A stretch of DNA of 64,000 nucleotides from Terriglobia bacterium. Lineage in GTDB: Bacteria > Acidobacteriota > Terriglobia > JAJPHL01 > JAPKYU01. Both the position numbers and the translations under genes were made by a program. The stretch spans positions 832,218 through 896,217 of the forward strand of contig CBDBKE010000002.1 in assembly GCA_965206645.1 (NCBI GenBank), in the 5' to 3' direction. Shown here in pieces: positions 3,750-18,853 of the stretch (position 1 is the stretch's first letter; every line of letters begins with the position of its first letter). The notes below the pieces were generated by a model that searched no databases, had not been told where the DNA came from, and worked only from the letters and a program-made list of their open reading frames with translations.

Positions 3750-4286
3750 TGACCTGCCCCCGGTTGTTGGTCCACTTTTTATGTTAGTCCATAAGCCGTT
3801 GCAGCCGGGTGGAGCGGAGCGGAACCCGGCGGTAACGGCAAGATCGCTTCCGGGGCTGGCGGCCGGTAGCCCAACGCGCTGTGCGGGCGAACTTTGTTAT
3901 ACTCCCGTCGCCATCCCTCAATCAACACCTTCGCTTCCCGCAAGGTGTGGAAGATCTCTCCATTGAGAAACTCGTCTCGAAACTTCCCGTTCAATGATTC
4001 TACATGCCCGTTTTCCCATGGGCTCCCCGGCTCGATGAACAAAGTTTTTACCTCTACCCGCTCCAGCCAGTTCCGAACCAACCGTGCTGTGAACTCGGAC
4101 CCATTGTCCGAGCGAATGTAATCGGGAACTCCTCGCTCCACAAACAAGGCTGCCAGCCGTTCCAAGACACTCATCGAATCAGCTCGCCGTCCTACGTCGA
4201 TCGCCAAACATTCTCGCGTGTACTCATCCACCACCGTCAACATCTTCAGGGGACGACCGTCCCGGGTTCGATCTGCCACAAAATCG
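3750..4286 (-). mobile_element. IS3-family element, 3' part of orfB plus right IR (truncated by IS5)
   Basis: IR TGACCTGCCCCCGG; DEYTREC, RSDNGSEF, PWENGHVES, RPHSALGYRPP. Confidence 0.9.
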
Positions 4287-4558
4287 GGCGTTGTTGCAGA
4301 AATCTGACTCCATCCCCAACGCTCTCCCTCCTGATAGGCTAGGGGATGGGCAAAAGCGACTACACCTTCCGATATAAGGTTCGCAACTGGCCGGAGTACA
4401 ACCGGGCTCTGGTGAAACGTGGGCAGCTGACACTGTGGTTCGACACGGAGGCAGTCGCTGCCTGGCGTCATCCAGGACCCTTCGAAGGGCGAGGCCGGCC
4501 CAAGGTCTACGCAGATGCGGCGATCCAATGTGCGCTGGTCCTGAATTCGGTGTTTCAC

Positions 4559-5808
4559 TGACCTGACCGGCACTTTTTGTACCAAGTGGAAAGAGAGAGA
4601 ATCCACTTGAGGAGGAAGTGAGGTCATGCCGACAAGGAGTTACAAGCCGGAGCAGATTGTAGCGGTGCTACGGCAGATAGAAGTGCAGATGGGGAACGGG
4701 AAGACTGCGCCCCAAGCCTGCAAAGAAGCTGGAATCCACACCCAAACCTACTACCGGTGGCGGAAGGAATACGGCGGGCTGAAGGTGGTGCAGGCAAAAC
4801 GGCTAAAGGAGTTGGAGAAGGAAAACACGCGGCTGAAGCGGTTGGTAGCGGAGCTTTCTCTGGAGAAGCAGGTGCTGCGGGATGTGGCACAGGGAAACTT
4901 CTGAGCCCTGAGCGGCGGCGTTGTGCGGTGGAGCGTGCGTGGGAGCAACACGGGTTGTCGGAACGGCATGCCTGCCGGCTGCTGGGGCAATGGCGAGGGA
5001 CACAACGATACGAGCCGATTCATCGGGTGGACGAGGATGCTCTGACCCGAGTGATCATTGCCCTGGGAGCGAAGTACGGGCGATATGGCTACCGGAGGAT
5101 CACAGCGTTGCTGCGGAGTGCGGGCTGGGAAGTGGGCAAGGACCGGGTGCAGCGGATTTGGCGGCGGGAAGGGCTGAAAGTGCCGCAAAAACAAAGGCCG
5201 CGAGGACGGCTGTGGCTGAACGACGGTTCCTGTGTACGACTGAGGCCGGAGCGACCGAACCACGTGTGGAGCTACGACTTCATGAGTGCCAGAACGCACG
5301 AGGGGAGAACGCTGCGGCTGCTGACCTTGCTGGATGAGTACACGCGGGAATGCCTGGCGATCCGGGTGGAGCGGAGGATGGGCAGCCAACAAATCATTGA
5401 GGCGTTGTCGGACGTGATGTTGTGGCGAGGGATACCGGAACAGATTCGATCCGACAATGGTCCCGAGTTCATCGCCAAACAACTGCGCCAGTGGTTGGCA
5501 AATCTAGGGACCGGGACACTGTACATCGAACCGGGCAGTCCCTGGGAGAACGGGTACTGCGAGAGTTTCAATGGGAAGCTGCGGGACGAATGCCTGAATG
5601 GAGAGATCTTCTACTCGTTGAAGGAGGCACAGGTGGTGATTGAACAGTGGAGAGTGCAATACAACACGGTGCGGCCGCACTCGGCGCTCGGCTATAGGCC
5701 CCCGGCGCCGGGGGCCTATAGCCCTCCCCTGCCACTGAAACCAGTTTCACAGCCCCAGGCTGCGATGTAAACTCTCACTACGGTTGGTACAAAAAATCGG
5801 TCTGGTCA
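4559..5808 (+). mobile_element. Complete IS3-family element (orfA 4626-4904; orfB to 5770, -1 frameshift)
   Basis: TGACC...GGTCA IRs, 4-bp TSD TCAC, slippery GGGAAAC at 4892-4898, DDE motifs. Confidence 0.95.
5690..5723. repeat. Perfect 34-bp palindrome within IS3 orfB
   Basis: GGCTATAGGCCCCCGGC|GCCGGGGGCCTATAGCC. Also present at 11191-11224, and as a 28-bp core at 846-873. Confidence 0.95.
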
Positions 5809-6121
5809 TCACCTCAACCTACGGACCACTCAAGGGTTCCTTCAATCCATCGTGGCGCTCATGGCTCTCGACCTCCCAGTGCCCAACTACAGCACGGTGA
5901 GCCAAAGGCAAAGCGCCGTCGACGTCCGACTGAGTGTACGGCCCACGGATCGACCACGACATGTCGCCATCGATTCGACGGGCCTGAAGATCTACGGAGC
6001 CGGTGAGTGGCACATCAGAAAACACCGAACCCTCCGCCGTAGGACATGGCGAAAGCTCCACCTAGGCGTCGATGAGACGACGAAAGAGATCGTTGCGATA
6101 GACCTGACTGCGAGCAACGTC

Positions 6122-6817
6122 GCTTAGATCGTCAAAATCGAGCAGGATGAGATGCTTCGAAGCGTATTGATTCACCCGACTATTAAGTCCGAGCACGTAG
6201 TCATTTGCCTCGGGGACTCTCAACGCCTTGAGGGTCCGACGATTTGAGTTCAGGAGTTTACGTAACCACGTATCAGTCATGCGGCCCTTCGGACACCATG
6301 CCGTGAAACGTGTGTGGTGAAAGTACAACTTCGGGCAATAGATATCGAAGGAAAAGTCTCTAATGCTTGAGTTTTCATGCACAAGAACAGAGAGTATGTT
6401 GTCTATTGAAATCGGCGGAATCTCTTTCTGCGCGCGGAGGATGAAGGCCTTGACTGTGGCGTCGTATTTATCGAGGTCTTTCAGCGTGGTCGGAACGTAC
6501 TCGCCATAGTCCGCCTTTTCTCGGTCCCCGTAGAGCGTTCTTAAAACCTTCCCGTAGCGCGCCGGGAAACCCCGCCGCACGACCCATTCCTTCCCAAACG
6601 TCGAGATGATTCCCACATGCTTCTTCGAGTTATTACCAATGAGTCGGAGCAGCGCAACGGCAGTATGGTGGGCGCTGTAGTAGAGACGATTGTACGCACC
6701 CAGGCGGGTCCTCCCGCTCGGGATTAAGGCGTGCGCTTCTGCTAACGCGTCAAAAGCCTTCGCAATCCAGCGGTGTGCCTGTTCAACTGACTTTCCCGTG
6801 TAGCTGGGTTTCGGCAT
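6122..6817 (-). CDS. HEPN-domain protein with a C-terminal primase(AEP)-like segment, 3'-truncated at IS5
   Basis: HEPN signature YNRLYYSAHH, KHVGIISTF, REKADY. C-terminal VLGLNSRV...HLILLDFDD. RBS AGGAG upstream. Confidence 0.65.
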
Positions 6818-6847: not shown

Positions 6848-7201
6848 TCAGGCATCTTTGGGCCGTGGCGGCAGGTCGAACAGTGCCAGGTCCTGGTCGC
6901 GCTCGAGGAACTCATCGAGGCCCTTCCTGAGCCGTGTAATGGACACCGGGTCGGCCTGGCTGACGCTGTCGATGTAGGAGCCGATCAGGATCAAGCGGCG
7001 GGTGCGGCGCTTGCGGTCGGCGGCGGAGAGGCGGGCCTGGGCGCGGCGGATCTGGCGGGTGAGGGTGGTACGCTGGCGGCGTTGGGCCTCCTGCAGCGCT
7101 TTTTTCTTCGCCGCGAGTTCCTGCTTGAGGGCTGCTTGCCGCTCAAGTAGTTGCTGCAGTTCGTCTTGTGGATCCATCTTGGTAGACGGCAGCATCGCCA
7201 C
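6848..7201 (-). CDS. Mobilization accessory protein (MobC/MobS-like)
   Basis: Coiled coil followed by DRKRRTRRLILIG. Divergent from the relaxase across oriT. Confidence 0.7.
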   Translation of the reverse strand: MAMLPSTKMDPQDELQQLLERQAALKQELAAKKKALQEAQRRQRTTLTRQIRRAQARLSAADRKRRTRRLILIGSYIDSVSQADPVSITRLRKGLDEFLERDQDLALFDLPPRPKDA

Positions 7202-7260
7202 AGTCTATTATTCAAATACGGCATCTATGATGCACGGCCAAAAGAACCAGAACGATAGTA

Positions 7261-7297
7261 AGGGCGCGTACTATTCCCGTTTCTCTGCGAGAAATGG
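7261..7297 (-). other. MOBQ-type origin of transfer (oriT-like)
   Basis: AGGGCGCGTACTATTCCCGTTTCTCTGCGAGAAATGG: a GCGCCCT nic-like motif plus a TTTCTC/GAGAAA hairpin, resembling the RSF1010 oriT. It lies between the mobC-like and mobA genes. Confidence 0.7.
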
Positions 7298-7328
7298 CGT
7301 GCGTCCGAACGACGACGGACGTGACGGC

Positions 7329-8159
7329 GTGGCGGTCTATCACCTCAAGGTCGGTTTCGGTTCCCGCGCCGGTGGGCAGTCCGCCCGCGCCAAGAATGAG
7401 TACATCGAGCGCGAGGGGCGCTATGCCGCGTACGGCGAGGAACGCGAGCATGTAGAGCACGGCCACATGCCCGCGTGGGCGCAGGACGACCCGCACGCCT
7501 ACTGGCAGGCGGCGGACGCGCATGAGCGCGCCAACGGGCGGCTCTACAGCGAAGTCCAGTTCGCCCTACCGCGCGAACTGGACGCGAGTGGGCGGCGCGA
7601 GCTCGCGGGCGCGTTCGCCGAGCGGGTATGCGGCGGGGAGCGGCTGCAGGAGACCTATGACCGAGTTCGAAGAGCGGTTGACGCACGAGTACAGCAAGCT
7701 GGCCGAGCAATACGCGCAGGAGCAGAAAGAGCTGTCCGCGCAGGTCGAGAGCTTGGGCAAGCAGGTGCGGCAGTGGGCCGAGCAGTACGCACGGGAGCAG
7801 ACGCGGCTTGGCGATCAGGTCGCGAGCTTGGGAGCGCACGTGCGGCGGTTAGCCGATCAATCCGCACAAGAGCGGAAAGCGCACACCGAGTGGGCGAGTA
7901 CGCTCGTGGAGCAACAACAACAAATGGGCGCACATGTCACGACCTTGACCACCGAATACGAAGGGCTGTTGCAGAACGTCAACAGAATGATCGACGCCTC
8001 CAACAGTGTTGCGAGCGAGTTGGAAACACTTATTCGATGATCCACCCCGAGGCTGTGCAGAAGCGGAAGGACGGGGACCGGCCGGACCGCGTGGAGGGTC
8101 TCATTGAGAGCCGTATCCAAAACAGAATGCGCAGCCGCAGCTATGATTTCGACCGGTAG
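7329..8159 (+). pseudogene. mobA: MobA/MobL (MOBQ) relaxase with internal deletion
   Basis: GTG start; AVYHLKV..SRAGGQSA...YIEREGRY; WQAADAHERANGRLYSEVQFALPREL. The His-triad motif is absent. The tail is RSRSYDFDR. Confidence 0.8.
7657..8040 (+). CDS. MbeD/MobD-like coiled-coil protein overlapping mobA
   Basis: GGAG RBS; MTEFEERLTHEYSKLAEQY. Nested in an alternate frame of the relaxase C-terminus, as in small mobilizable plasmids. Confidence 0.55.
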   Translation: MTEFEERLTHEYSKLAEQYAQEQKELSAQVESLGKQVRQWAEQYAREQTRLGDQVASLGAHVRRLADQSAQERKAHTEWASTLVEQQQQMGAHVTTLTTEYEGLLQNVNRMIDASNSVASELETLIR

Positions 8160-8326: not shown

Positions 8327-10321
8327 ATGAGTAACGGCGACCTGCACTGGATCGCGAACTATATCTGGGGGATCGCCGACGACGTCCTCCGAGACCTCTA
8401 CGTCCGCGGCAAGTACCGGGACGTCATCCTGCCGATGACGGTGCTGCGCCGGCTGGACGCGGTGCTGGTGGATAGCAAGCCGAACGTGCTCGAGATGAAG
8501 GCGGTGCTCGACCAAACCGGCGTCGTCGAGCAGGACGCGGCCCTCCGGCAGGCGGCGGGACAGGCCTTCTCCAACACCTCGAAGTTCACCCTGCACGACC
8601 TCCGGGCGCGCGCTAGCCGGCAGCAGCTCAGGGCCGACTTCGAGGCCTACCTCGACGGCTTCTCGCCCAACGTACAGGACATTCTCGAGAACTTCGAGTT
8701 CCGTAACCAGATCCCGCGGCTCTCGAAGGCCGACGCCTTGGGTACGCTCATCGAGAAGCTCACCTCGCCGGACATCAACCTCAGCCCCGCCCCGGCAAGG
8801 CACGCTGACGGCTCGGTCCGGTCTCCCGGCCTCGACAACCACGGGATGGGCTCGATCTTCGAGGAGTTGGTCCGCCGCTTCAACGAAGAGAACAACGAGG
8901 AGGCGGGCGAGCACTGGACGCCGCGCGACGCCGTACGGCTGATGGCGAAGCTCGTCTTCCTCCCCGTCGTCGACGAGCTCAAGTCTGGCACCTACCTGCT
9001 CTATGACGGCGCCTGCGGCACCGGCGGCATGCTCACGGTGGCCGAGGAAACGCTGCGGCAGCTTTCGGCCGAGCACGGCAAGGACGTCTCGACGCATCTG
9101 TTCGGCCAGGAGATCAACGCCGAGACCTACGCCATCTGCACGGCCGACCTGCTGCTCAAGGGCGAGGGCGAGGCGGCCGACAACATCGTCGGCGGCCCGG
9201 AGCACTCCACCCTCGCCAACGACGCCTTCCCGTCCCGCGAGTTCGACTTCATGCTCTCCAACCCGCCCTACGGCAAGAGCTGGAAGACCGACCTGGAGCG
9301 CATGGGCGGCAAGAAGGATATGCGCGACCCGCGCTTCGTCATCGAGCACGCCGGCGATCCCGAGTACTCCCTGGTCACCCGCTCCAGCGACAGTCAGATG
9401 CTTTTCCTCGCCAACAAGCTCTCGAAGATGAAGCAGGACACGCCGCTCGGCAGCCGCATCGCCGAGGAGCACAACGGTAGCTCGCTGTTCACCGGCGATG
9501 CCGGCCAGGGTGAGAGCAACATCCGCCGCTGGATCATCGAGAACGACTGGCTGGAGGCGATCGTCGCCCTGCCGCTCAACATGTTCTACAACACCGGCAT
9601 CGCCACCTACCTCTGGGTGCTCACCAACCGGAAGCCCGAGCACCGCCGGGGCAAGGTGCAGTTGATCGACGCCACGACGTGGTACCGGCCGCTCCGCAAG
9701 AACTTGGGCAAGAAGAACTGCGAACTGGCCGAGGACGACATCGCCCGCATCTGCAACGTTTTCCTCGCCTTCGAGGAAACCGAGGAGAGCCGCATCTTCG
9801 ACAACGCCGCGTTCGGCTACTGGAAGGTGACCGTCGAACGGCCGTTGCGCATCGAGGCCGCCGACCCGAACCGCGTCTACAAGGCGGTCGAGATCAAGGC
9901 GCTGAAGGAGACCGGCAAACGCAGCGATGCGGCGCCGGTCCTCCGGAAGATCCACAAGCGCGGCACGGAGGCCGACCCGCTGCGCGGCCTGTTCGCGGCC
10001 AACGTCAACGGCCGGCCGGCTGTCGTGGAGTACGAGCCGGATACCGACCTGCGCGACACCGAGGAGATCCCGCTGCAGGAAGACGGCGGCATCGAGGCGT
10101 TCCTGCGGCGCGAGGTCCTGCCGTACGCGGCCGACGCCTGGTACCAGGCGGACAGTGTGAAGGTCGGCTACGAGATCAGCTTCACGCGCTACTTCTACGC
10201 GCCGAAGCCGATGCGGACGCTGGCAGAGATTCGGGCGGATATTCTGGCGCTGGAGCAGGAGACGGAGGGGCTGCTGGCCGAGATCCTCGGCGGCGACGAA
10301 CAGCGGGAGACGACTGCATGA
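8327..10321 (+). CDS. hsdM: Type I restriction-modification N6-adenine methyltransferase subunit
   Basis: IWGIADDVLRD, VILPMTVLRRLD, AGEHWTPRD, YDGACGTGGML, NPPY, FYNTGIATY, GYEISFTRYFY. Confidence 0.95.
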   Translation: MSNGDLHWIANYIWGIADDVLRDLYVRGKYRDVILPMTVLRRLDAVLVDSKPNVLEMKAVLDQTGVVEQDAALRQAAGQAFSNTSKFTLHDLRARASRQQLRADFEAYLDGFSPNVQDILENFEFRNQIPRLSKADALGTLIEKLTSPDINLSPAPARHADGSVRSPGLDNHGMGSIFEELVRRFNEENNEEAGEHWTPRDAVRLMAKLVFLPVVDELKSGTYLLYDGACGTGGMLTVAEETLRQLSAEHGKDVSTHLFGQEINAETYAICTADLLLKGEGEAADNIVGGPEHSTLANDAFPSREFDFMLSNPPYGKSWKTDLERMGGKKDMRDPRFVIEHAGDPEYSLVTRSSDSQMLFLANKLSKMKQDTPLGSRIAEEHNGSSLFTGDAGQGESNIRRWIIENDWLEAIVALPLNMFYNTGIATYLWVLTNRKPEHRRGKVQLIDATTWYRPLRKNLGKKNCELAEDDIARICNVFLAFEETEESRIFDNAAFGYWKVTVERPLRIEAADPNRVYKAVEIKALKETGKRSDAAPVLRKIHKRGTEADPLRGLFAANVNGRPAVVEYEPDTDLRDTEEIPLQEDGGIEAFLRREVLPYAADAWYQADSVKVGYEISFTRYFYAPKPMRTLAEIRADILALEQETEGLLAEILGGDEQRETTA

Positions 10322-10530
10322 CTGAGATCATCTTCGAAATCACCGAAGACGAAATGGACGGCGGGTACTCGGCAAACGCCCTCGGGTACGGCATTCACAC
10401 CCAGGGCGAGTCTGTCGAGGAGATCCGCAGCAACGTCAAGGAGGCCGTCGACTGCTACTTCGACGACACCATGCCGCGACCGAAGTTGATCCGGTTGCAC
10501 TTCGTGCGGGACGAGGTTCTCGTGGCATGA
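10318..10530 (+). CDS. hicB: HicB-like antitoxin (no DNA-binding domain)
   Basis: MTEIIFEITED..GGYSA...IHTQGES.EE.RSNVKEAV. ATGA overlaps with hsdM and hicA. Confidence 0.8.
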   Translation: MTEIIFEITEDEMDGGYSANALGYGIHTQGESVEEIRSNVKEAVDCYFDDTMPRPKLIRLHFVRDEVLVA

Positions 10531-10769
10531 AGTTGCCCCGCAACGTGAGCGGCGCGACGCTGCAAGCGGCGCTTCGACGCCTGGGGTACGACACCGTGCG
10601 ACAGCGAGGCTCCCACGTGCGGATCACGACGCGGATCAACGGTGAACATCATGAGGTGATCCCGCTGCACACTCCGATCAGGACGAAGACGCTGTCGAGC
10701 ATCCTGAAGAGCGTTGCCAGGCACCACGAAATAACCGTCGAAGAGCTTCTCCGTGAACTCGACCTGTGA
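10527..10769 (+). CDS. hicA: HicA mRNA interferase toxin
   Basis: LRRLGY..VRQRGSHVR...IPLH..I..TLSSIL. Confidence 0.9.
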   Translation: MKLPRNVSGATLQAALRRLGYDTVRQRGSHVRITTRINGEHHEVIPLHTPIRTKTLSSILKSVARHHEITVEELLRELDL

Positions 10770-10785
10770 ACTCGGGGAGCGAGCG

Positions 10786-11105
10786 ATGAAGGACGCGCCG
10801 AAGGTCTATCTCGCCAGGGCTGGTCGACATGGCGACGACGAGGATTACGCACTTGAGCATAACCTCGCCGTGATCGGCTTCCTGGAGGTGCCGTCTCTGG
10901 CAGGCGCACAAGACTACGACGCGATGGTCCAGCTCGTGCAAGACGCGTTGCCCGATGGGAAGCCTCGCGCCCTCGGGAACTTTGCCAGACAACTGTGGGC
11001 TTTCGCGGAGGCAATGCAGGAGGGCGACCTCGTCGTCTTGCCACGCAAGATCACGTCGCAGATCGCTATTGGCCTGGTCACGGGGCCGTATCGATACGCC
11101 GAGGT
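10786..11105 (+). pseudogene. Mrr-like restriction protein, N-terminal part, truncated by IS3
   Basis: VYLARAGRHG, AVIGF, QLWAF..MQEGDLVVLP, IAIGLVTGPYRY. The nuclease domain is missing. Confidence 0.65.
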
Positions 11106-12355
11106 TAACCAGACCGATTTTTTGTACCAACCGTAGTGAGAGTTTACATCGCAGCCTGGGGCTGTGAAACTGGTTTCAGTGGCAGGGGAGGGCTATAGGC
11201 CCCCGGCGCCGGGGGCCTATAGCCGAGCGCCGAGTGCGGCCGCACCGTGTTGTATTGCACCCTCCACTGTTCAATCACCACCTGTGCCTCCTTCAACGAG
11301 TAGAAGATCTCTCCATTCAGGCATTCGTCCCGCAGCTTCCCATTGAAACTCTCGCAGTACCCGTTCTCCCAGGGACTGCCCGGTTCGATGTACAGTGTCC
11401 CGGTCCCTAGATTTGCCAACCACTGGCGCAGTTGTTTGGCGATGAACTCGGGACCATTGTCGGATCGAATCTGTTCCGGTATCCCTCGCCACAACATCAC
11501 GTCCGACAACGCCTCAATGATTTGTTGGCTGCCCATCCTCCGCTCCACCCGGATCGCCAGGCATTCCCGCGTGTACTCATCCAGCAAGGTCAGCAGCCGC
11601 AGCGTTCTCCCCTCGTGCGTTCTGGCACTCATGAAGTCGTAGCTCCACACGTGGTTCGGTCGCTCCGGCCTCAGTCGTACACAGGAACCGTCGTTCAGCC
11701 ACAGCCGTCCTCGCGGCCTTTGTTTTTGCGGCACTTTTAGCCCTTCCCGCCGCCAAATCCGCTGCGCCCGGTCCTTGCCCACTTCCCAGCCCGCACTCCG
11801 CAGCAACGCTGTGATCCTCCGGTAGCCATATCGCCCGTGCTTCGCTCCCAGGGCAATGATCGCTCGGGTCAGAGCATCCTCGTCCACCCGATGAATCGGC
11901 TCGTATCGTTGTGTCCCTCGCCATTGCCCCAGCAGCCGGCAGGCATGCCGTTCCGACAACCCGTGTTGCTCCCACGCACGCTCCACCGCACAACGCCGCC
12001 GCTCAGGGCTCAGAAGTTTCCCTGTGCCACATCCCGCAGCACCTGCTTCTCCAGAGAAAGCTCCGCTACCAACCGCTTCAGCCGCGTGTTTTCCTTCTCC
12101 AACTCCTTTAGCCGTTTTGCCTGCACCACCTTCAGCCCGCCGTATTCCTTCCGCCACCGGTAGTAGGTTTGGGTGTGGATTCCAGCTTCTTTGCAGGCTT
12201 GGGGCGCAGTCTTCCCGTTCCCCATCTGCACTTCTATCTGCCGTAGCACCGCTACAATCTGCTCCGGCTTGTAACTCCTTGTCGGCATGACCTCACTTCC
12301 TCCTCAAGTGGATTCTCTCTCTTTCCACTTGGTACAAAAAGTGCCGGTCAGGTCA
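11106..12355 (-). mobile_element. IS3-family element, second copy of the 4559 element
   Basis: Near-identical 1250 bp. No TSD, and it truncates genes on both sides. Confidence 0.95.
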
Positions 12356-12977
12356 TCACCGATAGGCTACCCCACTTTTTGAGCAGGCCAGGAGTCACGC
12401 GGTAGGCTCCATCGCGCCATTCGCCAATTGGAACGCACCTGGTCAGGCGCCCGGATACAGACAGCTTCGCACGGACAACAATGTCACGAGCAGCGATCTT
12501 GAGCCTTCGCGTATGGGCGTTGCTCTTGTACTGATCAGGAAGAACCGACCTGGCAGGCAGCACGTTATCAACCACGTACAGTCCGACCAACCCGTAGACT
12601 AGTTTTCGGCTTGCTCGAACCGACCGAAGGCCAGCATAGAAAACCAGCAGGTCACCCTCAGATAGATGCTTGATTCCGGCCCCGCGCTTGTCACCGTTGT
12701 CGCCATAGGTCAGCCAATCAAAGTCGGGGTCTAGGTGCATTGCGCGACGAAGCAAACTTCGCGGGAGTCCCAAACTGCTTTCAAGGTCAAGCTCGAACCT
12801 TAAAGCAAACCGCTGAAGAGCTGGAAGTACCTCACGGTACGATCGCTCCAGACCAGGCCGGAAGGCACGCTTTTCGGGAATTGGTACGTAGACGAAGTGA
12901 CCGGATTCTGGATCAACCGGAGCGTTCCATTGCCCGTACGTTTGGTCCACACCCACTCGAATTAGAATCGCTTCCAT
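12356..12977 (-). CDS. Nmad3-like nucleotide-modification-associated protein, C-terminus clipped by IS3
   Basis: ILIRVGVD, FVYVPIPE, HLDPDF..LTYGD, GDLLVFYAGL, NAH. Confidence 0.7.
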
Positions 12978-12992
12978 CTCTGGTAAAGGTTA

Positions 12993-13433
12993 CTACTCGA
13001 CCTCAAAGCCGCCGCTCCTAGCACAGAAGTCAGCGAATTCCCGAATCACTCGACGCGCGCCGGAGTCCAGTTTGAATGGGATCGATTCACTCTTGGAGAA
13101 ATAGCGGGCCGTGCTTTTCTCCTCGGCATTGCCCAATTGCTCAAAGATCTCAAGATAGGCTCTATTCGCCGCCTTCGCAGCTTCATTGTGTTCGGCGAGG
13201 TCGACTATCAGATTTCTGCCTTTCAGCCATGTTCCGAGGCTTTCGGCGATTTGTTTGGATTGTAACGGTGTTATCAAATGCGCGTCGTTTCCCGCGAATT
13301 TCTTATAGACGAGAGTTTCCTTTACTTCCGCCATCATCATTGAAGTTCGCAGTAAGGTCATCTGGTAGACATTGGCTCGAAAATAGCCTTTCTCGCCGAG
13401 GTCCCTGTCTTTAGCAACCAGATCGAATCCCAT
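12993..13433 (-). CDS. Uncharacterised 146-aa protein with a phage-hypothetical-like pattern
   Basis: MGFDL...YFRANV...ND..LIT..QSKQIA...IREFADFCARSGGFEV. It ends 15 bp before the Nmad3 start. Confidence 0.6.
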   Translation of the reverse strand: MGFDLVAKDRDLGEKGYFRANVYQMTLLRTSMMMAEVKETLVYKKFAGNDAHLITPLQSKQIAESLGTWLKGRNLIVDLAEHNEAAKAANRAYLEIFEQLGNAEEKSTARYFSKSESIPFKLDSGARRVIREFADFCARSGGFEVE

Positions 13434-13616
13434 TGTAGAAACGTCCCTATCCTACGAAAAATGAACCGGTTCCCGCAAATGTGTGTTTTTGCGCGCGCGA
13501 CGCGCACGTGCGAAGGGCTCTGTCCCCAGGGGCCTTCCTGGAAGCGTCACGAAAGCCTGGAGGCACTCTTGATGCGTTCGTCCACTCCCTCTCTGAAATT
13601 CAGGCAAGATACGTAT

Positions 13617-14223
13617 TCAATTCGACCCTCGAAGCCCCCCCCCCTTCCTCCTGTGCAAGAACAGCTTGCCGCCCTCATCGTGAATATGAACGTGCCAATA
13701 CATCTTCCCGTCATCGCGTCTCGTTTCGTACATCTCTGAGACCCAAGGATCGAAGTCCTTATAAGGAATCAACACTAGCTTGCTCGCCGAGCCACATCCG
13801 AAGGCGACATAGCCCATCTTTGCGTTGAGAAGCATCTCTCGCTGATGAGAATGAAAGGCAAACCAATACTTCTTCCCTGTCGGCATCTCGTACTCTTTCG
13901 ACACGGCACAAACGAAGGCAACTTCTTCATCACTCGTCGTGAATGTCGCTCTTGATTGCCTCACTAGCGTGTGCCCTAGCTTTTCACTGATTCTTTGGAT
14001 ACAGGCACCGTGGAAACTGACCGGTGTAAATGCTTTCTCAGTGCCGGCCGATTTGTCGTCATCCGCGTCCTCAGGCTGGACTTCCTCCTGAATGTCTTCC
14101 TTCGCAGAAAACAATAGGTCTACTCTGCCGTCGACTCTTGTGAATTCCTGCGGATTTAAGATTGCGCGAATTCGAACCGCAGTCTGTGGGTCTTCTACGC
14201 CCTCTTTAATGCCAAGCAGCTTG
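13617..14223 (-). pseudogene. Uncharacterised protein, 5'-truncated by IS3
   Basis: Lower-GC protein-like ORF (VCAVSKEY, YWFAFHSHQ, YWHVHI) running into the IS IR. A G10 tract lies near the 3' end. Confidence 0.6.
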
Positions 14224-15503
14224 TGACCTGCCGGCTTTCTTCGGACCACCGATTACTGGAGAACAGCGCCAGTCGGCATGGTTAAGTCGCTCTCGTGTTC
14301 TTCTTGGTCAGCGTGAGCCGGCATCGCCGGCGAGCGCCCACCGTCATCCGAGCCAGCACGGAGCTGCGCTTTGAACTCGGCTGGCGTCAGATAGCCAAGG
14401 CTCGAGTGCGGTCGCACGTCGTTGTAGTGCCGTCGCCATTGCTCGATCCCCACCTTCGCGTCCACGCGGTTCCGAAACCACTGCAGGCTCAGATACTCGT
14501 CGCGGAACTTCCCGTTGAACGATTCGTCGGTCGCATTCTGCCACGGCTTCCCCGGCTTGATGAGCGCGGTTTCGATCTGCGCCTGGAGCAGCCACCGGAG
14601 AATCGCACCCGCGACAAACTCGGGGCCGTTGTCGGACCGGAGGTAACGTGGGGCTCCGTGGAGGCTCACGAGCTGCGTGAGCACCTCGATAACGCGCCCG
14701 GACCGAATGCCGCCGGCCACGTCGATCGCGAGTGACTCGCGGGTCCATTCGTCGACGACGGTGAGGCACTTGAGCGTCTGCCCATTCGCGCAGGTGTCGA
14801 ACACGAAGTCGTACGCCCAGACGTGATTGACCGCAGTGGCGGGCACCGGGCGGGGCCGGCTCAGGGCGACCCGGCGCCGCGGCCGCCGCCGAGGCACCTG
14901 CAACCCCGCCTGGCGCCAGAGGCGATGGGTCCGGTCCGTGCTCATCGTGTGCCCTTCGCGTTTTAGGAAAATCCGAATCCGGCGATAGCCGTACCGCGGA
15001 TACTGCGCCGCCAGACGACGCATCGCGGCCAGCGCCGGGGCATCCCGGTCGACCAGCCGCGACTGGTAGCCCAGCGTGGACCGTGCGACGGAGAGCAAGG
15101 CGCACGCGCGGCGACCCGACAGACCGCGTGCACGTGCATACGCGACCTGCGGCCGGCGCACGCGTGCGCCTACCATTTTTTTCGGGTGATCTCCTTGAGC
15201 ACGTCGATCTCCAGATCTCGATCGGCCACCATCTTTTTCAGCCGGCCGTTCTCCTGCTCGAGCTGCCGCAGCCGCTTCACATCGGCGGGCTCCAACGTGC
15301 CGAAGTGTTTCCGCCAGGCGTAGAGCGTCTGGGCGCTGACGCCGTTCTTTTTGGCCACCTCCGGAACGGGCCGCTGATCGGCCTCGCGGAGGATCGTCAC
15401 CATCTGCTCTTCGGTAAACCGGGTCTTCTTCATGGCTCCCTCGTTTCTCCGAGGGCGCCATTCTCTCAGGCTTCGGCTGGTCCGGAAATCGCCAGGCAGG
15501 TCA
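14224..15503 (-). mobile_element. IS3-family element, distinct type (orfA 15170-15433; orfB to 14253)
   Basis: TGACCTGCC IRs, A7 slippery site, DDE motifs. A second copy is at 49898. No TSD here. Confidence 0.95.
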
Positions 15504-16628
15504 CCCCCAATCGATCCAGTTTAGGGAATTAACCGAGAAGCCTTGATGCCAGACGCGCGTCTTGGTGGACTCTAAAAACGGAATACTCTTGAGCGCATGG
15601 TGCTCCGAATCAGCCAGGGTGACTAGTTGAATGGGCACCCGCCGGTGCCCAAAGTATGTCTTATCGCCGCCCCTTTGATAGCGGGCGATAAGCCCACCCA
15701 GCGCCTCGTATGCATAGCTGTCATACGAAGGGAATGAGTATCCAATTATGACTATGGACGAAAAGGCACCCAGCGTCCGGTGAAGATTCTCCCAGAGGTC
15801 TAGGATGGCATCGTATCCAAGCAGCTTGTCATAGGCCGGAGGGAGGACGAAGGGGACCACATTTGTCGCCCCGGGACCGCCCCCTATGGGGAAGTATTCT
15901 GTGTGATTGGGGACACGAAAGACTCGTGGCAGGATGTGACTCCCGAACGCCTCCGTCGGGCCTCGTGAAAGAGGCTCTGATGGAACTGACGGAGATGGGC
16001 CGAAGATCGGATCCCGGTTCGGCACATCGTGACCTTCTTCTGTGTGCCAGCGCATTGCGTCGTCATGGTAGTAACGATCGTACCAGTCAATCGACCCGTG
16101 GAGTTTAAGTAGGTCAACGAACTTTGGTTCAAATCCACCTGGGTCCGTTTTGAGCCACCACTCAGGAGTCAGGGTGTACGGCTTGCCGATGTCGTCGAGG
16201 GCTTGCTCTAAGAGAGTGTCGTAGTTGAAGGTCAGCACAACGTCATTCGGGCATAGCCGCTCAGCGAAATCCCGATACAGAGTTGGAGTGTCGCTTGGCG
16301 TTGCTTGAATGAGTATCCGTTGGATCGCTGTTCGTGCAGCGGCTATTGATCGGCTGCCATGCTCGAAGTACTCGTCGGAACCCAATAGGCGCAGGTAGTG
16401 CTTCCGATGACTATATGCCAGTACGCGTTCCAGATCGATCGACTGACCTGGATACAGCGAGGCCCACTCTCCGATCTCTTGTTCCAGAGAGCCTTCCCAA
16501 CCAAAGTCACGAAAGTTGCCTCGGACGTCCTCTCGGACGCGTTCAAGGAGGCTTTTGGCAAGTGGTAGGCCAGCAGGTGCTGAAAAGCCAGCCCCGAGTA
16601 TGAATAGACGGCAAAAGGGGAGGTCCAT
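15501..16628 (-). CDS. SIR2-like (SIR2_2) putative NADase
   Basis: FILGAGFS..AGLP, TFNYDTLLE, LLKLHGSIDW, IIGYSF. The stop codon is supplied by the IS end. Confidence 0.85.
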   Translation of the reverse strand: MDLPFCRLFILGAGFSAPAGLPLAKSLLERVREDVRGNFRDFGWEGSLEQEIGEWASLYPGQSIDLERVLAYSHRKHYLRLLGSDEYFEHGSRSIAAARTAIQRILIQATPSDTPTLYRDFAERLCPNDVVLTFNYDTLLEQALDDIGKPYTLTPEWWLKTDPGGFEPKFVDLLKLHGSIDWYDRYYHDDAMRWHTEEGHDVPNRDPIFGPSPSVPSEPLSRGPTEAFGSHILPRVFRVPNHTEYFPIGGGPGATNVVPFVLPPAYDKLLGYDAILDLWENLHRTLGAFSSIVIIGYSFPSYDSYAYEALGGLIARYQRGGDKTYFGHRRVPIQLVTLADSEHHALKSIPFLESTKTRVWHQGFSVNSLNWIDWG

Positions 16629-16828
16629 GTTCTTAATGTCTAGTTCTCAAGTTCTCAATGTTTAGTGGTGGAGCCGACACGTCCGCCGAGCATGAGGAAC
16701 GCTCGCTCAGGCACTAGTCTCAAACAGCCTTCCTTCCAGCTAGCGGACTTCCCGCGTTTCGGCCTCAATCTAACCCCCGACATTTCGGGTCTATGCATAC
16801 TAGGCAAGACGAACTGACAAAAGTCTCA

Positions 16829-17791
16829 TCACCTTCCCGCTCCTTTCGATTTGCCTTTTGCCCGCCGCCGTTTCGGTTTCGCCTTCATCACGGCTGCCAG
16901 CGGCGCTCGCATTTTCTCATAGAGCATGAACAGATGTTCGACGCGTTCCCGCTCGGACGCGAAGCCTTTCGCGCGGTAGAGCCGATCCACGGCACGGTCC
17001 AGGGCTTGGTGCGAGCGGCGCAGGTTGGGCGGCATCAGGTCGGGATCGTAGAGGTCGGCCAGCGTTGCGCCCGGATGGGCGGCGCGGGCGTCAAGCACGG
17101 ATTGCGCGAGCGACTCCAGTTTCGACAGGTCCGAGCTTTCATTCCCGAAGCCGGGCGGCGTCGGAAACGTGTTGTAGACGAGACCACTAGAGTAGCGGTA
17201 ATCGCTTTTCAGGCGCCCTCCGACATGGCGCAGCCAGGCCATGTGCATGGCGGAGGTGAGTAGCGCGAAGAGATGCAATGTCGTGTTTTGAATGATCAAT
17301 AGCTGATTGCTGGGAATAACGGGAGGCTCCAAATATCCGATTGGAACGTATTCCCGTCGTTCGGAACTCACTTCGGGCACGACCAGGAATTCGGCGCTGG
17401 GAACAACGGTTACGTGAAACTCTGTCGGCCGATTCGCAAGCGATCTTGCCAACTTACCCGCGTAATTTGTTCTAAACTCCCTGACGGCCTGGACCCGTTT
17501 CAGCACACTCGGCATGGATCGTAGTAAGGATGGCAGAGCACCTGATGTCAGGAGTATCCATCGCTCCAGGCCGTTGATATGTTCGCGACCGCCGATAAAG
17601 GGCCTGAGCAGGCGGGTAGCCTCCGGCTCCCGTGTCAGGAGTTCCTCTCTTTCCTCCCTGTCCAGGATATAGTGGCCGCCATCGACAGGCTTGGTGCCGA
17701 CACCGATTTTGCGAAGGTTGGATATGGCGTTTCGACGTCTATCAACTACGAGATGAGAATTGCCCAAGTGGCTCGCGTCTACGAGATAGGG
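16829..17791 (-). pseudogene. MmeI-like type IIG/IIL restriction-modification enzyme, C-terminal part, truncated by IS5
   Basis: VSSERREYVPIGY, SAMHMAWLRHVGGRLKSDYRYS..LVYNTFP, TLADLYDPDLMP, LDRAVDRLY. Confidence 0.9.
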
Positions 17792-18853
17792 GGCGTTGTT
17801 GCAGAAATCTGCCTCCATCCCCAACGCTCTCCCCCCTGATAGGCTAGGGGATGGGCAAAAGCGACTACACCTTCCGATATAAGGTTCGCAACTGGCCGGA
17901 GTACAACCGGGCTCTGGTGAAACGTGGGCAGCTGACACTGTGGTTCGACACGGAGGCAGTCGCTGCCTGGCGTCATCCAGGACCCTTCGAAGGGCGAGGC
18001 CGGCCCAAGGTCTACGCAGATGCGGCGATCCAATGTGCGCTGGTCCTGAATTCGGTGTTTCACCTCAACCTACGGACCACTCAAGGGTTCCTTCAATCCA
18101 TCGTGGCGCTCATGGCTCTCGACCTCCCAGTGCCCAACTACAGCACGGTGAGCCGAAGGCAAAGCGCCGTCGACGTCCGACTGAGTGTAGGGCCCACGGA
18201 TCGACCACGACATGTCGTCATCGATTCGACGGGCCTGAAGATCTACGGAGCCGGTGAGTGGCACATCAGAAAACACCGAACCCTCCGCCGTAGGACATGG
18301 CGAAAGCTCCACCTAGGCGTCGATGAGACGACGAAAGAGATCGTTGCGATGGACCTGACTGCGAGCAACGTCCACGACGCCCGAAGGCTCTCTTCGTTGC
18401 TGTCTAAGACTCCTGGTTCGATCGGGCAAGTCTCCGCAGACCGGGCCTACGACACGGGTTCCTGCTACGAGGCCGTACTCCAGCACGACGCTATCGTGAC
18501 GATCTTGCCGCGACGCAATGCACGATGCAGCCGAGACTCTCATCCGCCTCCGTGGCGTGCGATGCGTGATACCCATCTCCGGCGTATTAGGACACAGGGC
18601 CGTTATGAGTGGCGGAAGTCGAGTGGCTGCACTCGCCAGAGCGTGGCGGAGAATGCGGTCTCACGGTACAAGGCGATACTCGGGGTAAGCCTCTCGGCCC
18701 GCACGGTCAAGAACCAAAAAGTCGAAGCCGCGATCAAGTGCGCTGTGCTGAACCGGATGGCGGAGCTTGGAATGCCACGATCGGAGCGCGTGTACTGAGG
18801 CGGATGAGCTTCTCGGCCCGGTTCGCCGCGAGCGCGAATTACGCAACAACGCC
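17792..18853 (+). mobile_element. Complete IS5-family (IS903-like) element, transposase 17851-18798
   Basis: IRs GGCGTTGTTGC / GCAACAACGCC; NWPEYNRALVKRG, IDSTGLK, WRKLHLGVD, ADRAYD. No TSD seen. Confidence 0.95.

What the first reader, a model, noticed from the sequence alone, without database searches (positions are those of the whole stretch)
6122..6817. HEPN domain fused to a primase(AEP)-like domain: candidate new conflict/defence protein
Seen: residues ~1-135 have the MNT-HEPN-type signature (NRLYY, KH.GI...F, REKADY). A second domain follows and ends VLGLNSRV-x6-HLILLDFDD, exactly where IS5 cuts it. No MNT gene lies upstream. Inference from motif recall: hhhhDFD preceded by L.L.S.V resembles motif I of small archaeo-eukaryotic-primase (AEP1D-like) domains. 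A HEPN plus nucleotide-polymerase fusion could be a single-chain toxin-antitoxin, an RNA-repair module or an antiphage sensor. It sits directly downstream of a plasmid mob gene within a defence island.
Basis: partly seen in the sequence, partly recalled or inferred. Interest (0 to 1): 0.7.

Follow-up and report, generated by a model that had tools for sequence, protein, structure and literature searches.

The report
Broken HEPN–primase-like fusion gene
This is the front three quarters of a gene for a rare two-part protein (an RNA-nuclease-type HEPN domain joined to a small primase-like domain) that was cut off by a deletion next to a mobile element, and its intact relatives look like an undescribed single-gene conflict or defence protein.

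Summary
Window 6122-6817 (-) encodes residues 1-232 of a ~312-residue protein. Residues 1-135 are a HEPN domain of the AF0298/UPF0332 type. The rest is the start of a small archaeo-eukaryotic-primase (AEP)-like domain related to Pfam PF24387.

Intact homologues exist: 83 protein clusters, the best 93% identical. They carry AEP motif I (DxD, 48/48) and motif II (G..H). The predicted C-terminal fold matches only AEP primases (RepB' Z 10.6, S-2L PrimPol Z 9.5).

The window copy is a pseudogene. It stops two residues after motif I, at a junction with an IS5-family copy that is itself cut at internal base 581 of 1062. This is a deletion junction, not a plain insertion. The missing 81 codons were not found elsewhere in the genome.

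The family is rare, patchy across many phyla and stand-alone (no shared neighbour). About half of its loci have known defence genes next door. It was not found on the plasmids, phages or viral contigs searched.

The same AEP-like domain is also fused to Pol III alpha-like polymerases, which argues for real nucleotide polymerisation.

Function is untested. My best guess is a polymerase-plus-HEPN conflict protein analogous to AbiA. The main rival is a mobile-element primase.

The parts
6122..6817 (-). 5' fragment (codons 1-232 of ~312) of the HEPN-AEP-like gene; a pseudogene
   Evidence: 93% identical over 232 aa to the 313-aa P0002. It is the only copy in the genome, and it matches residues 1-234 of the query only.
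6413..6817 (-). HEPN domain (residues 1-135), AF0298/UPF0332 type
   Evidence: Pfam PF05168 E 6.1e-08. The model of the homologue matches 2hsb at Z 17.3, rmsd 2.2, 123 aligned. R99 is conserved in 46/48, H67 in 46/48 and Y104 in 45/48.
6122..6412 (-). First 97 residues (136-232) of the AEP-like domain, including the invariant D..S.D..C..HH.R block and the GLNSRVNQY block
   Evidence: Alignment A1. The C-terminal domain of the model matches RepB' primase at Z 10.6.
6128..6139 (-). AEP motif I (D227-F-D229-D230), the last catalytic motif retained
   Evidence: D227 and D229 are invariant in 48/48. Motifs II and III lie beyond the break.
6062..6121 (-). Foreign 19-codon tail plus stop, read from the antisense of IS DNA
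   Evidence: Translation. Identity to the intact IS runs up to base 6121.
5809..6121 (+). IS5-family copy, second piece (IS bases 269-581 of 1062), cut inside the transposase gene
   Evidence: Pfam DDE_Tnp_1_5 and DDE_Tnp_1, positions 4-59 of 200. Comparison with the intact copy.
4559..5808 (+). IS3-family element inserted into the IS5-family copy (TG..CA ends, 4-bp duplication TCAC)
   Evidence: HTH_21, rve, rve_3.
4287..4558 (+). IS5-family copy, first piece (IS bases 1-272, including the terminal inverted repeat)
6848..7201 (-). MobC-like gene directly upstream, on the same strand
   Evidence: Residues 62-116 are 45% identical to 'mobilization protein C' of small mobilisable plasmids. 144 records matched, 143 of them predicted mobilisable.
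7227..7658 (+). N-terminal fragment of a MobA/MobL relaxase, divergent from mobC; the frame breaks after about 144 codons
   Evidence: 43% identical to MobA/MobL of small plasmids, 1604 records. Pfam MobA_MobL gives 23.7 bits, below the cut-off of 26.7, covering profile positions 16-95 of 224 only.

Best explanation
Shown:
- The window holds the first 232 codons of a gene for a two-domain protein. The N-terminal domain is an AF0298/UPF0332-type HEPN four-helix domain. The C-terminal domain is a small AEP (primase-polymerase)-like nucleotidyltransferase domain.
- The gene was truncated two codons after catalytic motif I by a deletion. That deletion also removed the right half of an adjacent IS5-family copy. 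The locus is therefore a non-functional remnant.
- It lies in a decayed, IS-riddled island that carries a MOBQ-type mobC/mobA remnant and defence genes.

Inferred for the intact family:
- It is a stand-alone, horizontally moving conflict protein of the 'polymerase plus HEPN' kind, analogous to AbiA.
- The AEP-like domain, which is predicted to form the homodimer, would use NTPs or dNTPs to start and extend a short nucleic-acid or nucleotidyl product.
- The rigidly attached HEPN domain would act either as the nucleotide- or nucleic-acid-binding helper that such primases need, or as an RNase effector held in check by that product.
- Which of these two roles HEPN plays is not settled.
For: Anatomy:
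- HEPN by Pfam and by fold (2hsb Z 17.3).
- AEP fold: RepB' Z 10.6, rmsd 3.3, 152 aligned; 6zp9 Z 9.5; PriS chains Z 7.2-7.8. Foldseek gives 6zp9 a probability of 0.97.
- PF24387 scores above its cut-off in clade B members and in 4 of 6 Pol III fusion proteins scanned.
- DxD is invariant in 48/48; G252 is in 47/48 and H254 in 45/48.
- The model has pLDDT 91.4 and pTM 0.88, so the two domains are predicted to pack in a fixed way.

Pseudogene:
- One copy in the genome, matching residues 1-234 only.
- The junction falls at IS base 581 of 1062.

A real polymerase role:
- The same domain (E 1e-45 to 1e-57 against the family profile) sits at the C-terminus of PHP + DNA_pol3_alpha + finger + HHH_6 proteins.

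Conflict setting:
- 22 loci in MAGs labelled with many different phyla.
- Full-length-type matches in 2 of 61 related genomes, the window's own included; a third genome had only a weak HEPN-only hit.
- No neighbour family is shared by more than 2 of 22 loci.
- PADLOC hits at E <= 1e-10 lie within three ORFs in 12 of 22 loci: Wadjet JetC/JetD plus AbiU, OLD/GajA-like in two loci, type III R-M, TIR, Fic, and the candidates PDC-S01, S06 and S33. Two of those 12 loci rest wholly or partly on hits that look like housekeeping enzymes (L017, L022).
- The window's own island has HsdM, HicA, Nmad3, SIR2 and an MmeI fragment.

Analogy:
- AbiA is a polymerase with a HEPN domain that is enzymatically inactive yet needed for polymerase activity and for dimer formation (abstract of PMC11077055).

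Dimer:
- The model supports a homodimer. Score 0.50 against a best control of 0.00. The mark was reached by 20 of 30 proteins solved as pairs and 1 of 23 solved as single chains. The runs agree in at least 95% of contacts and the partner's pLDDT is at least 84.
- The interface is in the AEP-like domain (residues 167-199, 217-220, 284-289).
Against: - No experiment exists for any member.
- The defence association has no background control, and 10 of 22 loci show no PADLOC hit.
- The family matches no PADLOC or NCBIfam model.
- The canonical motif III Asp is Ser in 43/48 members of this clade, so catalysis may be altered or lost.
- The HEPN domain lacks the His of Rx4-6H (Y104 stands at R+5).
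- The predicted dimer does not use the HEPN domain, unlike classical HEPN RNases.
- Sister clades carry the same AEP-like domain with a non-HEPN helical N-terminus (P0078, P0081), so HEPN is not essential to the domain's function.
- The window copy keeps an intact HEPN reading frame without its AEP partner. That argues weakly against HEPN being a toxin restrained by the AEP domain.
Confidence: 0.5

Rival explanations
1. Mobile-element replication primase. The AEP-like domain would prime DNA synthesis for a plasmid, integrative mobilisable element or phage. The HEPN four-helix bundle would play the part of the helix-bundle domain that RepB' and pRN1-type primases use to hold the template and the initiating nucleotide.
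For: - The best structural match of the C-terminal domain is the RSF1010 plasmid primase RepB' (Z 10.6 and 10.4).
- A sister clade is fused to Pol III alpha-like replicative polymerases.
- The window copy lies directly after mobC in a MOBQ-type mob cassette.
- The nearest ESM Atlas clusters are PF24387 proteins, some labelled mostly viral.
- A different helical N-terminus can replace HEPN.
- That RepB' needs its helix-bundle domain is recalled knowledge, not from a call.
Against: - No full-length hit in 72,556 plasmid records (9 hits, all to the HEPN part), in 50,697 phage records or in IMG/VR by pattern scan.
- No helicase, Rep or other replication gene is shared among the 22 loci.
- Integrase or recombinase genes lie within three ORFs in only 3 of 22 loci (L018, L024, L029).
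- The motif III Asp is lost in this clade.
- The HEPN site residues R99, H67 and Y104 stay conserved, which a pure scaffold would not need.
Confidence: 0.25
2. Single-chain toxin-antitoxin of the HEPN/MNT (type VII) logic. The AEP-like nucleotidyltransferase would have displaced the MNT antitoxin. It would nucleotidylate the conserved Tyr next to the HEPN site (Y104) to keep an AF0298-type RNase silent until ATP or the enzyme fails.
For: - The nearest stand-alone relatives of this HEPN on plasmids sit next to 'nucleotidyltransferase domain-containing protein' genes (H1-H3).
- No MNT-type gene was found within three ORFs in any of the 22 loci at Pfam E <= 1e-5.
- Y104 is conserved in 45/48, R99 in 46/48 and H67 in 46/48.
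- The closest solved sequences, 9xbd and 9xbc, differ at exactly the aligned Tyr (..sDY.. against ..sDF..), as in a site-directed mutant (my inference).
- Fused MNT-HEPN proteins that AMPylate themselves on a Tyr beside the motif are described (abstract and section titles of PMC13000451).
- AF0298-like HEPN domains are proposed to use an alternative His between helices 2 and 3 (passages of PMC3710099).
Against: - AEP enzymes are not known to modify proteins (recalled).
- The same AEP-like domain works with non-HEPN partners.
- The predicted dimer leaves the HEPN domains unpaired.
- The window's truncated allele, and other truncated alleles (P0070, P0071), keep HEPN without the supposed antidote.
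- I could not measure the distance between Y104 and D227/D229, because model coordinates are not given.
Confidence: 0.15
3. A catalytically dead AEP-like domain serving only as a dimerisation or nucleic-acid-binding scaffold for a HEPN sensor or effector.
For: - The motif III Asp is replaced by Ser in 43/48.
- The predicted dimer interface lies in this domain.
Against: - The DxD pair is invariant in 48/48 and motif II G/H is kept in 45-47 of 48.
- A Glu at position 242 (45/48) appears exactly in those sequences that lack the motif III Asp. This fits a relocated third carboxylate, though it is a single evolutionary event.
Confidence: 0.1

Closest known systems
Pfam PF24387 'AEP-like' (Archaeo-eukaryotic primase 1D-like) small proteins of bacteria and phages
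   Same: The core is homologous. Clade B relatives score 29-37 bits against a cut-off of 27. They share the DxD, SG.G.H-type and h-V-D motifs and the C-terminal RGY.TLR...KP block. The nearest ESM Atlas clusters are of this family (score 0.96-0.97).
   Different: The window's clade scores below the cut-off (12-21 bits). It has an extra invariant N-terminal block (D154, S156, D158, C161, H167, H168, R170), a 6-residue deletion with Ser in place of the motif III Asp, and an N-terminal HEPN domain. I found no paper that explains the family or the name 'AEP1D'.
RepB' primase of plasmid RSF1010 (PDB 3h20, 3h25) and cyanophage S-2L PrimPol AEP domain (6zp9)
   Same: These are the best structural matches of residues 134-313: Z 10.6, 10.4 and 9.5 with 149-152 residues aligned. 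Both are compact AEP catalytic domains. The window copy also sits in a mob context.
   Different: Sequence identity is only 10-13%, and profile search of the PDB gave no sequence-level match. RepB' carries a C-terminal helix bundle, whereas here the helical domain is N-terminal and is a HEPN. No replication partners are nearby.
AbiA (and the AbiK / Abi-P2 polymerases) of abortive-infection systems
   Same: Both are single proteins that combine a nucleic-acid polymerase with a HEPN domain, both form dimers and both are defence-linked. In AbiA the HEPN domain is inactive but required for polymerase activity (abstract of PMC11077055). AbiA's HEPN domain matches the model at Z 8.1.
   Different: The AbiA polymerase is a reverse-transcriptase-like palm domain, not an AEP. 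AbiA dimerises through its HEPN domain (section title), whereas here the predicted interface is in the AEP-like domain. The resemblance is one of working principle, not of family.
HEPN/MNT (HepT/MntA, type VII) toxin-antitoxin pairs and AF0298/UPF0332 HEPN proteins
   Same: The HEPN domain is of this class. It matches 2hsb at Z 17.3 and the AMPylated HEPN toxin 8xdj at Z 11.2, and 9xbd at E 2.2e-08. Stand-alone relatives sit next to NTase genes.
   Different: There is no MNT partner. HEPN is fused to a non-homologous nucleotidyltransferase. The canonical His of Rx4-6H is absent.

Membership tests
AEP (archaeo-eukaryotic primase / primase-polymerase) superfamily | AEP catalytic fold | tested here: met
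   AlphaFold2 model of the 93%-identical intact homologue (pLDDT 91.4). Residues 134-313 match RepB' (Z 10.6, rmsd 3.3, 152 aligned), S-2L PrimPol (Z 9.5) and archaeal and human PriS (Z 7.2-7.8). The listed matches aligned over this domain alone were AEP primases. This is a predicted model, not a solved structure.
AEP (archaeo-eukaryotic primase / primase-polymerase) superfamily | Motif I, hhhhDxD on a beta-strand | tested here: met
   LILLDFDD: D227 and D229 are invariant in 48/48 and lie on strand 225-229. The motif is present in the window at 6128-6139.
AEP (archaeo-eukaryotic primase / primase-polymerase) superfamily | Motif II, sGxGxH-type Gly and His | tested here: met
   Intact homologues have RT.SGFHF, with G252 in 47/48 and H254 in 45/48. 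Clade B and the Pol III fusions have the canonical SGRG(F/Y)H. The motif is missing from the window copy because of the truncation.
AEP (archaeo-eukaryotic primase / primase-polymerase) superfamily | Motif III, hD (third metal-binding Asp) | tested here: not met
   In the window's clade the aligned position is Ser in 43/48 and Asp in only 2/48. The Asp is present in clade B, in the Pol III fusions and in PF24387 proteins. A Glu at position 242 (45/48) may substitute; this is inference.
Pfam PF24387 AEP-like | Score at or above the gathering cut-off (27 bits) | tested here: not met
   Close homologues score 12.5-21.2 bits. The window fragment gave no hit. Distant HEPN-AEP members do pass (29.4, 37.5, 34.0 and 32.5 bits). 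The clade is therefore a diverged sister group rather than a scoring member.
HEPN superfamily (PF05168; AF0298/UPF0332 type) | Pfam score above the cut-off, and a four-helix HEPN fold | tested here: met
   33.3 bits against 22. 2hsb matches at Z 17.3, rmsd 2.2, 123 of 126 residues.
HEPN superfamily (PF05168; AF0298/UPF0332 type) | Rx4-6H RNase motif | tested here: not met
   R99 is present in 46/48, but R+5 is Tyr (45/48) and there is no His at R+5 to R+7. The alternative His described for AF0298-like proteins (PMC3710099, passages) has a candidate in H67 (46/48). Activity is unknown.
HEPN/MNT type VII toxin-antitoxin | Adjacent or fused MNT (minimal nucleotidyltransferase) partner | tested here: not met
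   No nucleotidyltransferase family appeared among the 121 neighbour ORFs (70 aa or longer, three on each side) of the 22 loci at Pfam E <= 1e-5. None lies upstream in the window.
Known anti-phage defence systems (PADLOC-DB 2.0) | Match to a defence-system model | tested here: not met
   0 of 8 family members matched at E <= 0.01. One member had a weak JetA hit at E 0.013 in its non-HEPN N-terminus.

The most novel reading that the evidence does not exclude
HEPN-AEP proteins would be a new class of single-gene anti-phage immunity. In it, a primase-type (AEP) polymerase, rather than a reverse transcriptase or a CD-NTase, makes a short nucleic-acid or nucleotidyl product. That product could possibly be attached to the conserved Tyr104. 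It would gate an AF0298-type HEPN RNase, making this the AEP counterpart of AbiA/AbiK and of self-AMPylating MNT-HEPN fusions.
Probability: 0.2. Interest if true: 0.8.

Novelty: new variant of a known kind. Interest (0 to 1): 0.5.

Why it matters
HEPN domains and AEP primase-polymerases are both recurrent building blocks of conflict systems. I found no description of the two fused in one small protein. Four full-text searches found none, and the 2013 HEPN census mentions 'primase' only in its reference list.

If the intact family protects against phage, it would add a primase-type enzyme to the polymerases known to run abortive-infection-like immunity. At about 312 residues it would also be a compact system for studying how a polymerase and a HEPN domain talk to each other.

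The by-product, Pol III alpha-like polymerases carrying the same primase-like domain, is a lead for replication biology.

The window copy itself is a dead remnant. It matters only as the pointer to the family and as an example of IS-driven decay of a defence and mobilisation island.

Tried and rejected
- **Missing 3' part.** I looked for it elsewhere in the genome and found only the one fragment.
- **Ancestral intact locus.** The metagenome scan with P0002 returned one distant locus only (30% identity). The tool that fetches contigs by exact protein is closed. The 23-kb contig of the 93%-identical intact copy could therefore not be read, and the extent of the deletion is unknown.
- **Related genomes.** The family was found in 2 of 61 genomes (the window's own and one at 74% identity, split over contig ends). 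A third genome had only a weak HEPN-only hit.
- **Plasmids, phages, IMG/VR.** No full-length member was found.
- **Viral structure library (BFVD).** Nothing at E <= 0.001; only weak primase-like rows.
- **Profile search of PDB sequences.** Only HEPN hits appeared; there was no sequence-level AEP hit.
- **PADLOC and NCBIfam.** No family model matched.
- **Conserved partner gene.** An all-against-all comparison of 845 flanking ORFs found none shared by more than 2 of 22 loci.
- **C-terminal-only profile.** My alignment A2 still kept N-terminal columns (294 profile positions). The count of 221 clusters therefore mixes whole-protein and domain-only hits.
- **'IS5 inserted into the gene'.** Rejected, because the IS is cut at an internal base.
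- **Microhomology at the junction.** Not assessable without DNA of a near-identical intact copy.
- **The name 'AEP1D'.** Not found in any biology paper.

Full report
**1. What is in the window**

On the minus strand an ORF runs from 6817 to 6062 (251 aa). Pfam finds a HEPN domain (PF05168) at residues 15-125, with E 6.1e-08 and 33.3 bits against a cut-off of 22.

The region has lower G+C (0.50-0.56) than its flanks (0.60-0.69), as expected for acquired DNA.

**2. The break**

A search of 5.8 billion protein clusters gave 83 relatives. Most are 312-313 aa long. The best is 93% identical over all 232 query residues (P0002, 313 aa, E 4.7e-143). The window gene is therefore a truncated copy that lacks the last 81 codons.

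The genome holds no other piece of it: there is one match, to residues 1-234.

The DNA to the left of base 6122 belongs to an IS5-family element present in at least two dozen copies in this genome. An intact copy is 1062 bp with terminal inverted repeats and one DDE transposase gene, for example window 17792-18853.

The copy next to the gene has this history:
- It starts at 4287.
- It is split after its base 272 by a 1250-bp IS3-family element (4559-5808, 4-bp duplication).
- It resumes at 5809.
- It stops at its base 581, which is window 6121, in the middle of the transposase gene.

So neither an IS end nor a gene end lies at 6121|6122. The junction is a deletion or illegitimate-recombination scar that removed the right half of the IS and the 3' end of the gene. 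The last 19 codons of the ORF are fortuitous antisense IS sequence.

**3. The second domain**

An alignment of 48 family members (A1) shows that the C-terminal ~175 residues are the more conserved part. The following are invariant in 48/48:
- D154, S156, D158, C161, H167, H168, R170
- G210, N212, S213, N216, Q217, Y218
- the DxD pair D227/D229

G252 (47/48) and H254 (45/48) form a motif-II-like '..SGFHF'.

Pfam PF24387 ('AEP-like, Archaeo-eukaryotic primase 1D-like') scores above its cut-off in the more distant members: 29.4, 37.5 and 32.1 bits, and 34.0 and 32.5 bits. It scores below the cut-off (12-21 bits) in the window's own clade.

An AlphaFold2 model of P0002 built on A1 is confident (pLDDT 91.4, pTM 0.88). 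Against 48,161 solved chains:
- The N-terminal domain matches HEPN structures (2hsb Z 17.3).
- Residues 134-313 match RepB' primase of RSF1010 (Z 10.6 and 10.4, about 152 aligned, rmsd 3.3).
- They also match the AEP domain of cyanophage S-2L PrimPol (Z 9.5), and archaeal and human PriS (Z 7.2-7.8).
- The listed matches aligned over the C-terminal domain alone were these AEP primases.

Foldseek alone gave 6zp9 a probability of 0.97.

**4. One defining feature fails in this clade**

I aligned the C-terminal domains of five groups:
- the main HEPN-AEP clade
- a second HEPN-AEP clade
- a clade with a non-HEPN helical N-terminus
- Pol III fusions
- small PF24387 proteins

The canonical motif III 'h-V/I-D' is present in the second clade, the Pol III fusions and PF24387 proteins. 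In the window's clade there is a 6-residue deletion, and Ser stands at the aligned position (43/48).

Exactly those sequences carry a Glu in an 'EPG' turn (position 242, 45/48) that the others lack. This may be a relocated third carboxylate. It is one evolutionary event, and I could not check it on coordinates.

**5. Other architectures**

A profile search of 1.84 billion representatives found only 221 clusters at E <= 0.001 and 29 at E <= 1e-30. The family is small.

Besides HEPN-AEP and helical-AEP proteins, the same domain occurs at the C-terminus of ~1040-1070-aa proteins with PHP, DNA_pol3_alpha, finger and HHH_6 domains. This includes the N-terminal invariant block, and the profile E-values are 1e-45 to 1e-57 (P0095, P0098, P0101, P0104). 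A search restricted to longer proteins found three such clusters and nothing else.

A primase-like domain welded to a C-family polymerase argues that the domain really handles nucleotides and primers.

**6. The HEPN domain**

It belongs to the AF0298/UPF0332 type. R99 (46/48), D103 (44/48), Y104 (45/48) and H67 (46/48) are conserved.

The canonical Rx4-6H His is absent. Anantharaman et al. 2013 (PMC3710099; passages read) note this for AF0298-like HEPN domains. They propose an alternative His from the insert between helices 2 and 3; H67 is the candidate here.

The nearest solved sequences (9xbd and 9xbc, E 2e-08) differ at the Tyr aligned with Y104. An AMPylated HEPN toxin (8xdj) matches at Z 11.2. 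Stand-alone relatives on plasmids sit beside nucleotidyltransferase genes.

So this is the HEPN class that normally pairs with an MNT. Here there is no MNT, but there is a fused, unrelated nucleotidyltransferase.

**7. Context**

In the window, the gene follows a MobC-like gene. That gene is divergent from a truncated MobA/MobL relaxase. The surrounding 20 kb holds an SNase, HsdM, HicA, Nmad3, a SIR2-like gene and an MmeI fragment, interleaved with IS3- and IS5-family copies.

Elsewhere, 22 loci were found among the genomes of 185,579 species. They lie in MAGs labelled Bacteroidota, Acidobacteria, NC10, Polyangia, Verrucomicrobia, Chloroflexi, Planctomycetota, Omnitrophota, Elusimicrobia and others.

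- No neighbour family is shared by more than 2 of 22 loci.
- Pfam shows no MNT.
- PADLOC models hit neighbours (three ORFs on each side, E <= 1e-10) in 12 of 22 loci. The hits include Wadjet plus AbiU, OLD/GajA-like nucleases (two loci), type III R-M, TIR and Fic proteins, and several 'PDC' candidates.
- Two of those 12 loci rest wholly or partly on hits that look like housekeeping enzymes.
- Ten loci have no hit, and I have no background control.
- The family itself matches no PADLOC or NCBIfam model.
- It was not found in PLSDB plasmids, INPHARED phages or IMG/VR.

**8. Quaternary structure**

A homodimer prediction passed its controls:
- Score 0.50 against a best control of 0.00.
- The mark was reached by 20 of 30 proteins solved as pairs and by 1 of 23 solved as single chains.
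- The runs agree in at least 95% of contacts, and the partner's pLDDT is at least 84.

The interface is formed by the AEP-like domain (strand 171-176 pairing with itself, helix 184-199, and residues 217-220 and 284-289), not by HEPN. Several invariant residues (H167-R170, Q217, Y218) lie in it.

**9. Reading**

Shown:
- the architecture
- the AEP fold (on a predicted model) and motifs I and II
- the truncation and its nature
- the stand-alone, patchy distribution

Inferred:
- The intact protein is a conflict-type 'polymerase plus HEPN' module.

The closest working analogy is AbiA. Its HEPN domain is catalytically inactive yet required for polymerase activity (abstract of PMC11077055). Membership in that family is excluded, because the polymerase fold is different.

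The main rival is a mobile-element primase in which HEPN replaces the helix-bundle helper. The RepB' match, the Pol III fusions and the mob neighbourhood favour it. The absence from plasmids and phages and the lack of replication partners count against it.

A single-chain HEPN/MNT-like toxin-antitoxin remains possible and makes a sharp prediction: a nucleotide adduct on Y104.

**10. Novelty and score**

Both domains and the Pfam model exist. The fusion is visible in database annotations only as 'HEPN domain-containing protein' or 'UPF0332'.

I found no paper describing a HEPN-AEP fusion (searches; for the listed papers I saw search listings and abstracts only, apart from the three cited above). 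bioRxiv supplements and subscription journals were not searchable.

I rate it a new variant of a known kind. The window copy is dead, and the interest lies in the family.

Noticed in passing
proteins P0095, P0098, P0101, P0104, P0231, P0232 (not in the window): Pol III alpha-like proteins (PHP + DNA_pol3_alpha + finger + HHH_6, about 900-1070 aa) carry the same AEP-like domain at their C-terminus. This is a polymerase-primase fusion for which I found no description.
   Followed up: partly
window 4287-6121: Nested insertion sequences. An IS5-family copy (1062 bp when intact, at least two dozen copies in the genome) is split by a 1250-bp IS3-family element at 4559-5808 with a 4-bp duplication. 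It is then cut at its internal base 581.
   Followed up: yes
window 3779-4286 (-): An IS3-family integrase-core fragment (rve, rve_3) abuts the left end of the IS5-family copy. It looks like another truncated IS.
   Followed up: no
window 6848-8159: A MOBQ-type mobilisation remnant. A MobC-like gene is divergent from a MobA/MobL relaxase that keeps only about 144 N-terminal codons. A coiled-coil ORF in another frame (7522-8040) has a weak MbeD/MobD-like hit.
   Followed up: partly
window 8327-18853: A decayed defence island: HsdM (8327-10321), HicA toxin (10527-10769) preceded by a small ORF, an IS3-family copy (11147-12157), Nmad3 (12351-12977), another IS3-family transposase (14256-15461), a SIR2-like gene (15504-16628), and the MmeI target-recognition and C-terminal domains (16832-17938), overlapped at the 5' end of the ORF by an intact IS5-family copy (17792-18853).
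   Followed up: no
L012:6868-7959 and L012:8001-8951: In one Bacteroidota MAG the HEPN-AEP gene starts 39 bases after a RelA/SpoT-domain gene that matches the PADLOC candidate PDC-S33 at E 4e-118. A Schlafen-type helicase lies downstream.
   Followed up: no
L029:8990-10831 and L031:8995-10824: In two loci an OLD-family ATPase-TOPRIM nuclease lies directly next to the HEPN-AEP gene. This is one of only five neighbour-ORF links shared between any two of the 22 loci.
   Followed up: no
protein P0072 (not in the window): A 267-aa protein has the first ~95 residues of this family's HEPN domain, then switches to a PD-(D/E)XK nuclease domain (PF12705, E 1.6e-08). It is either a recombinant or an assembly chimera.
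   Followed up: no
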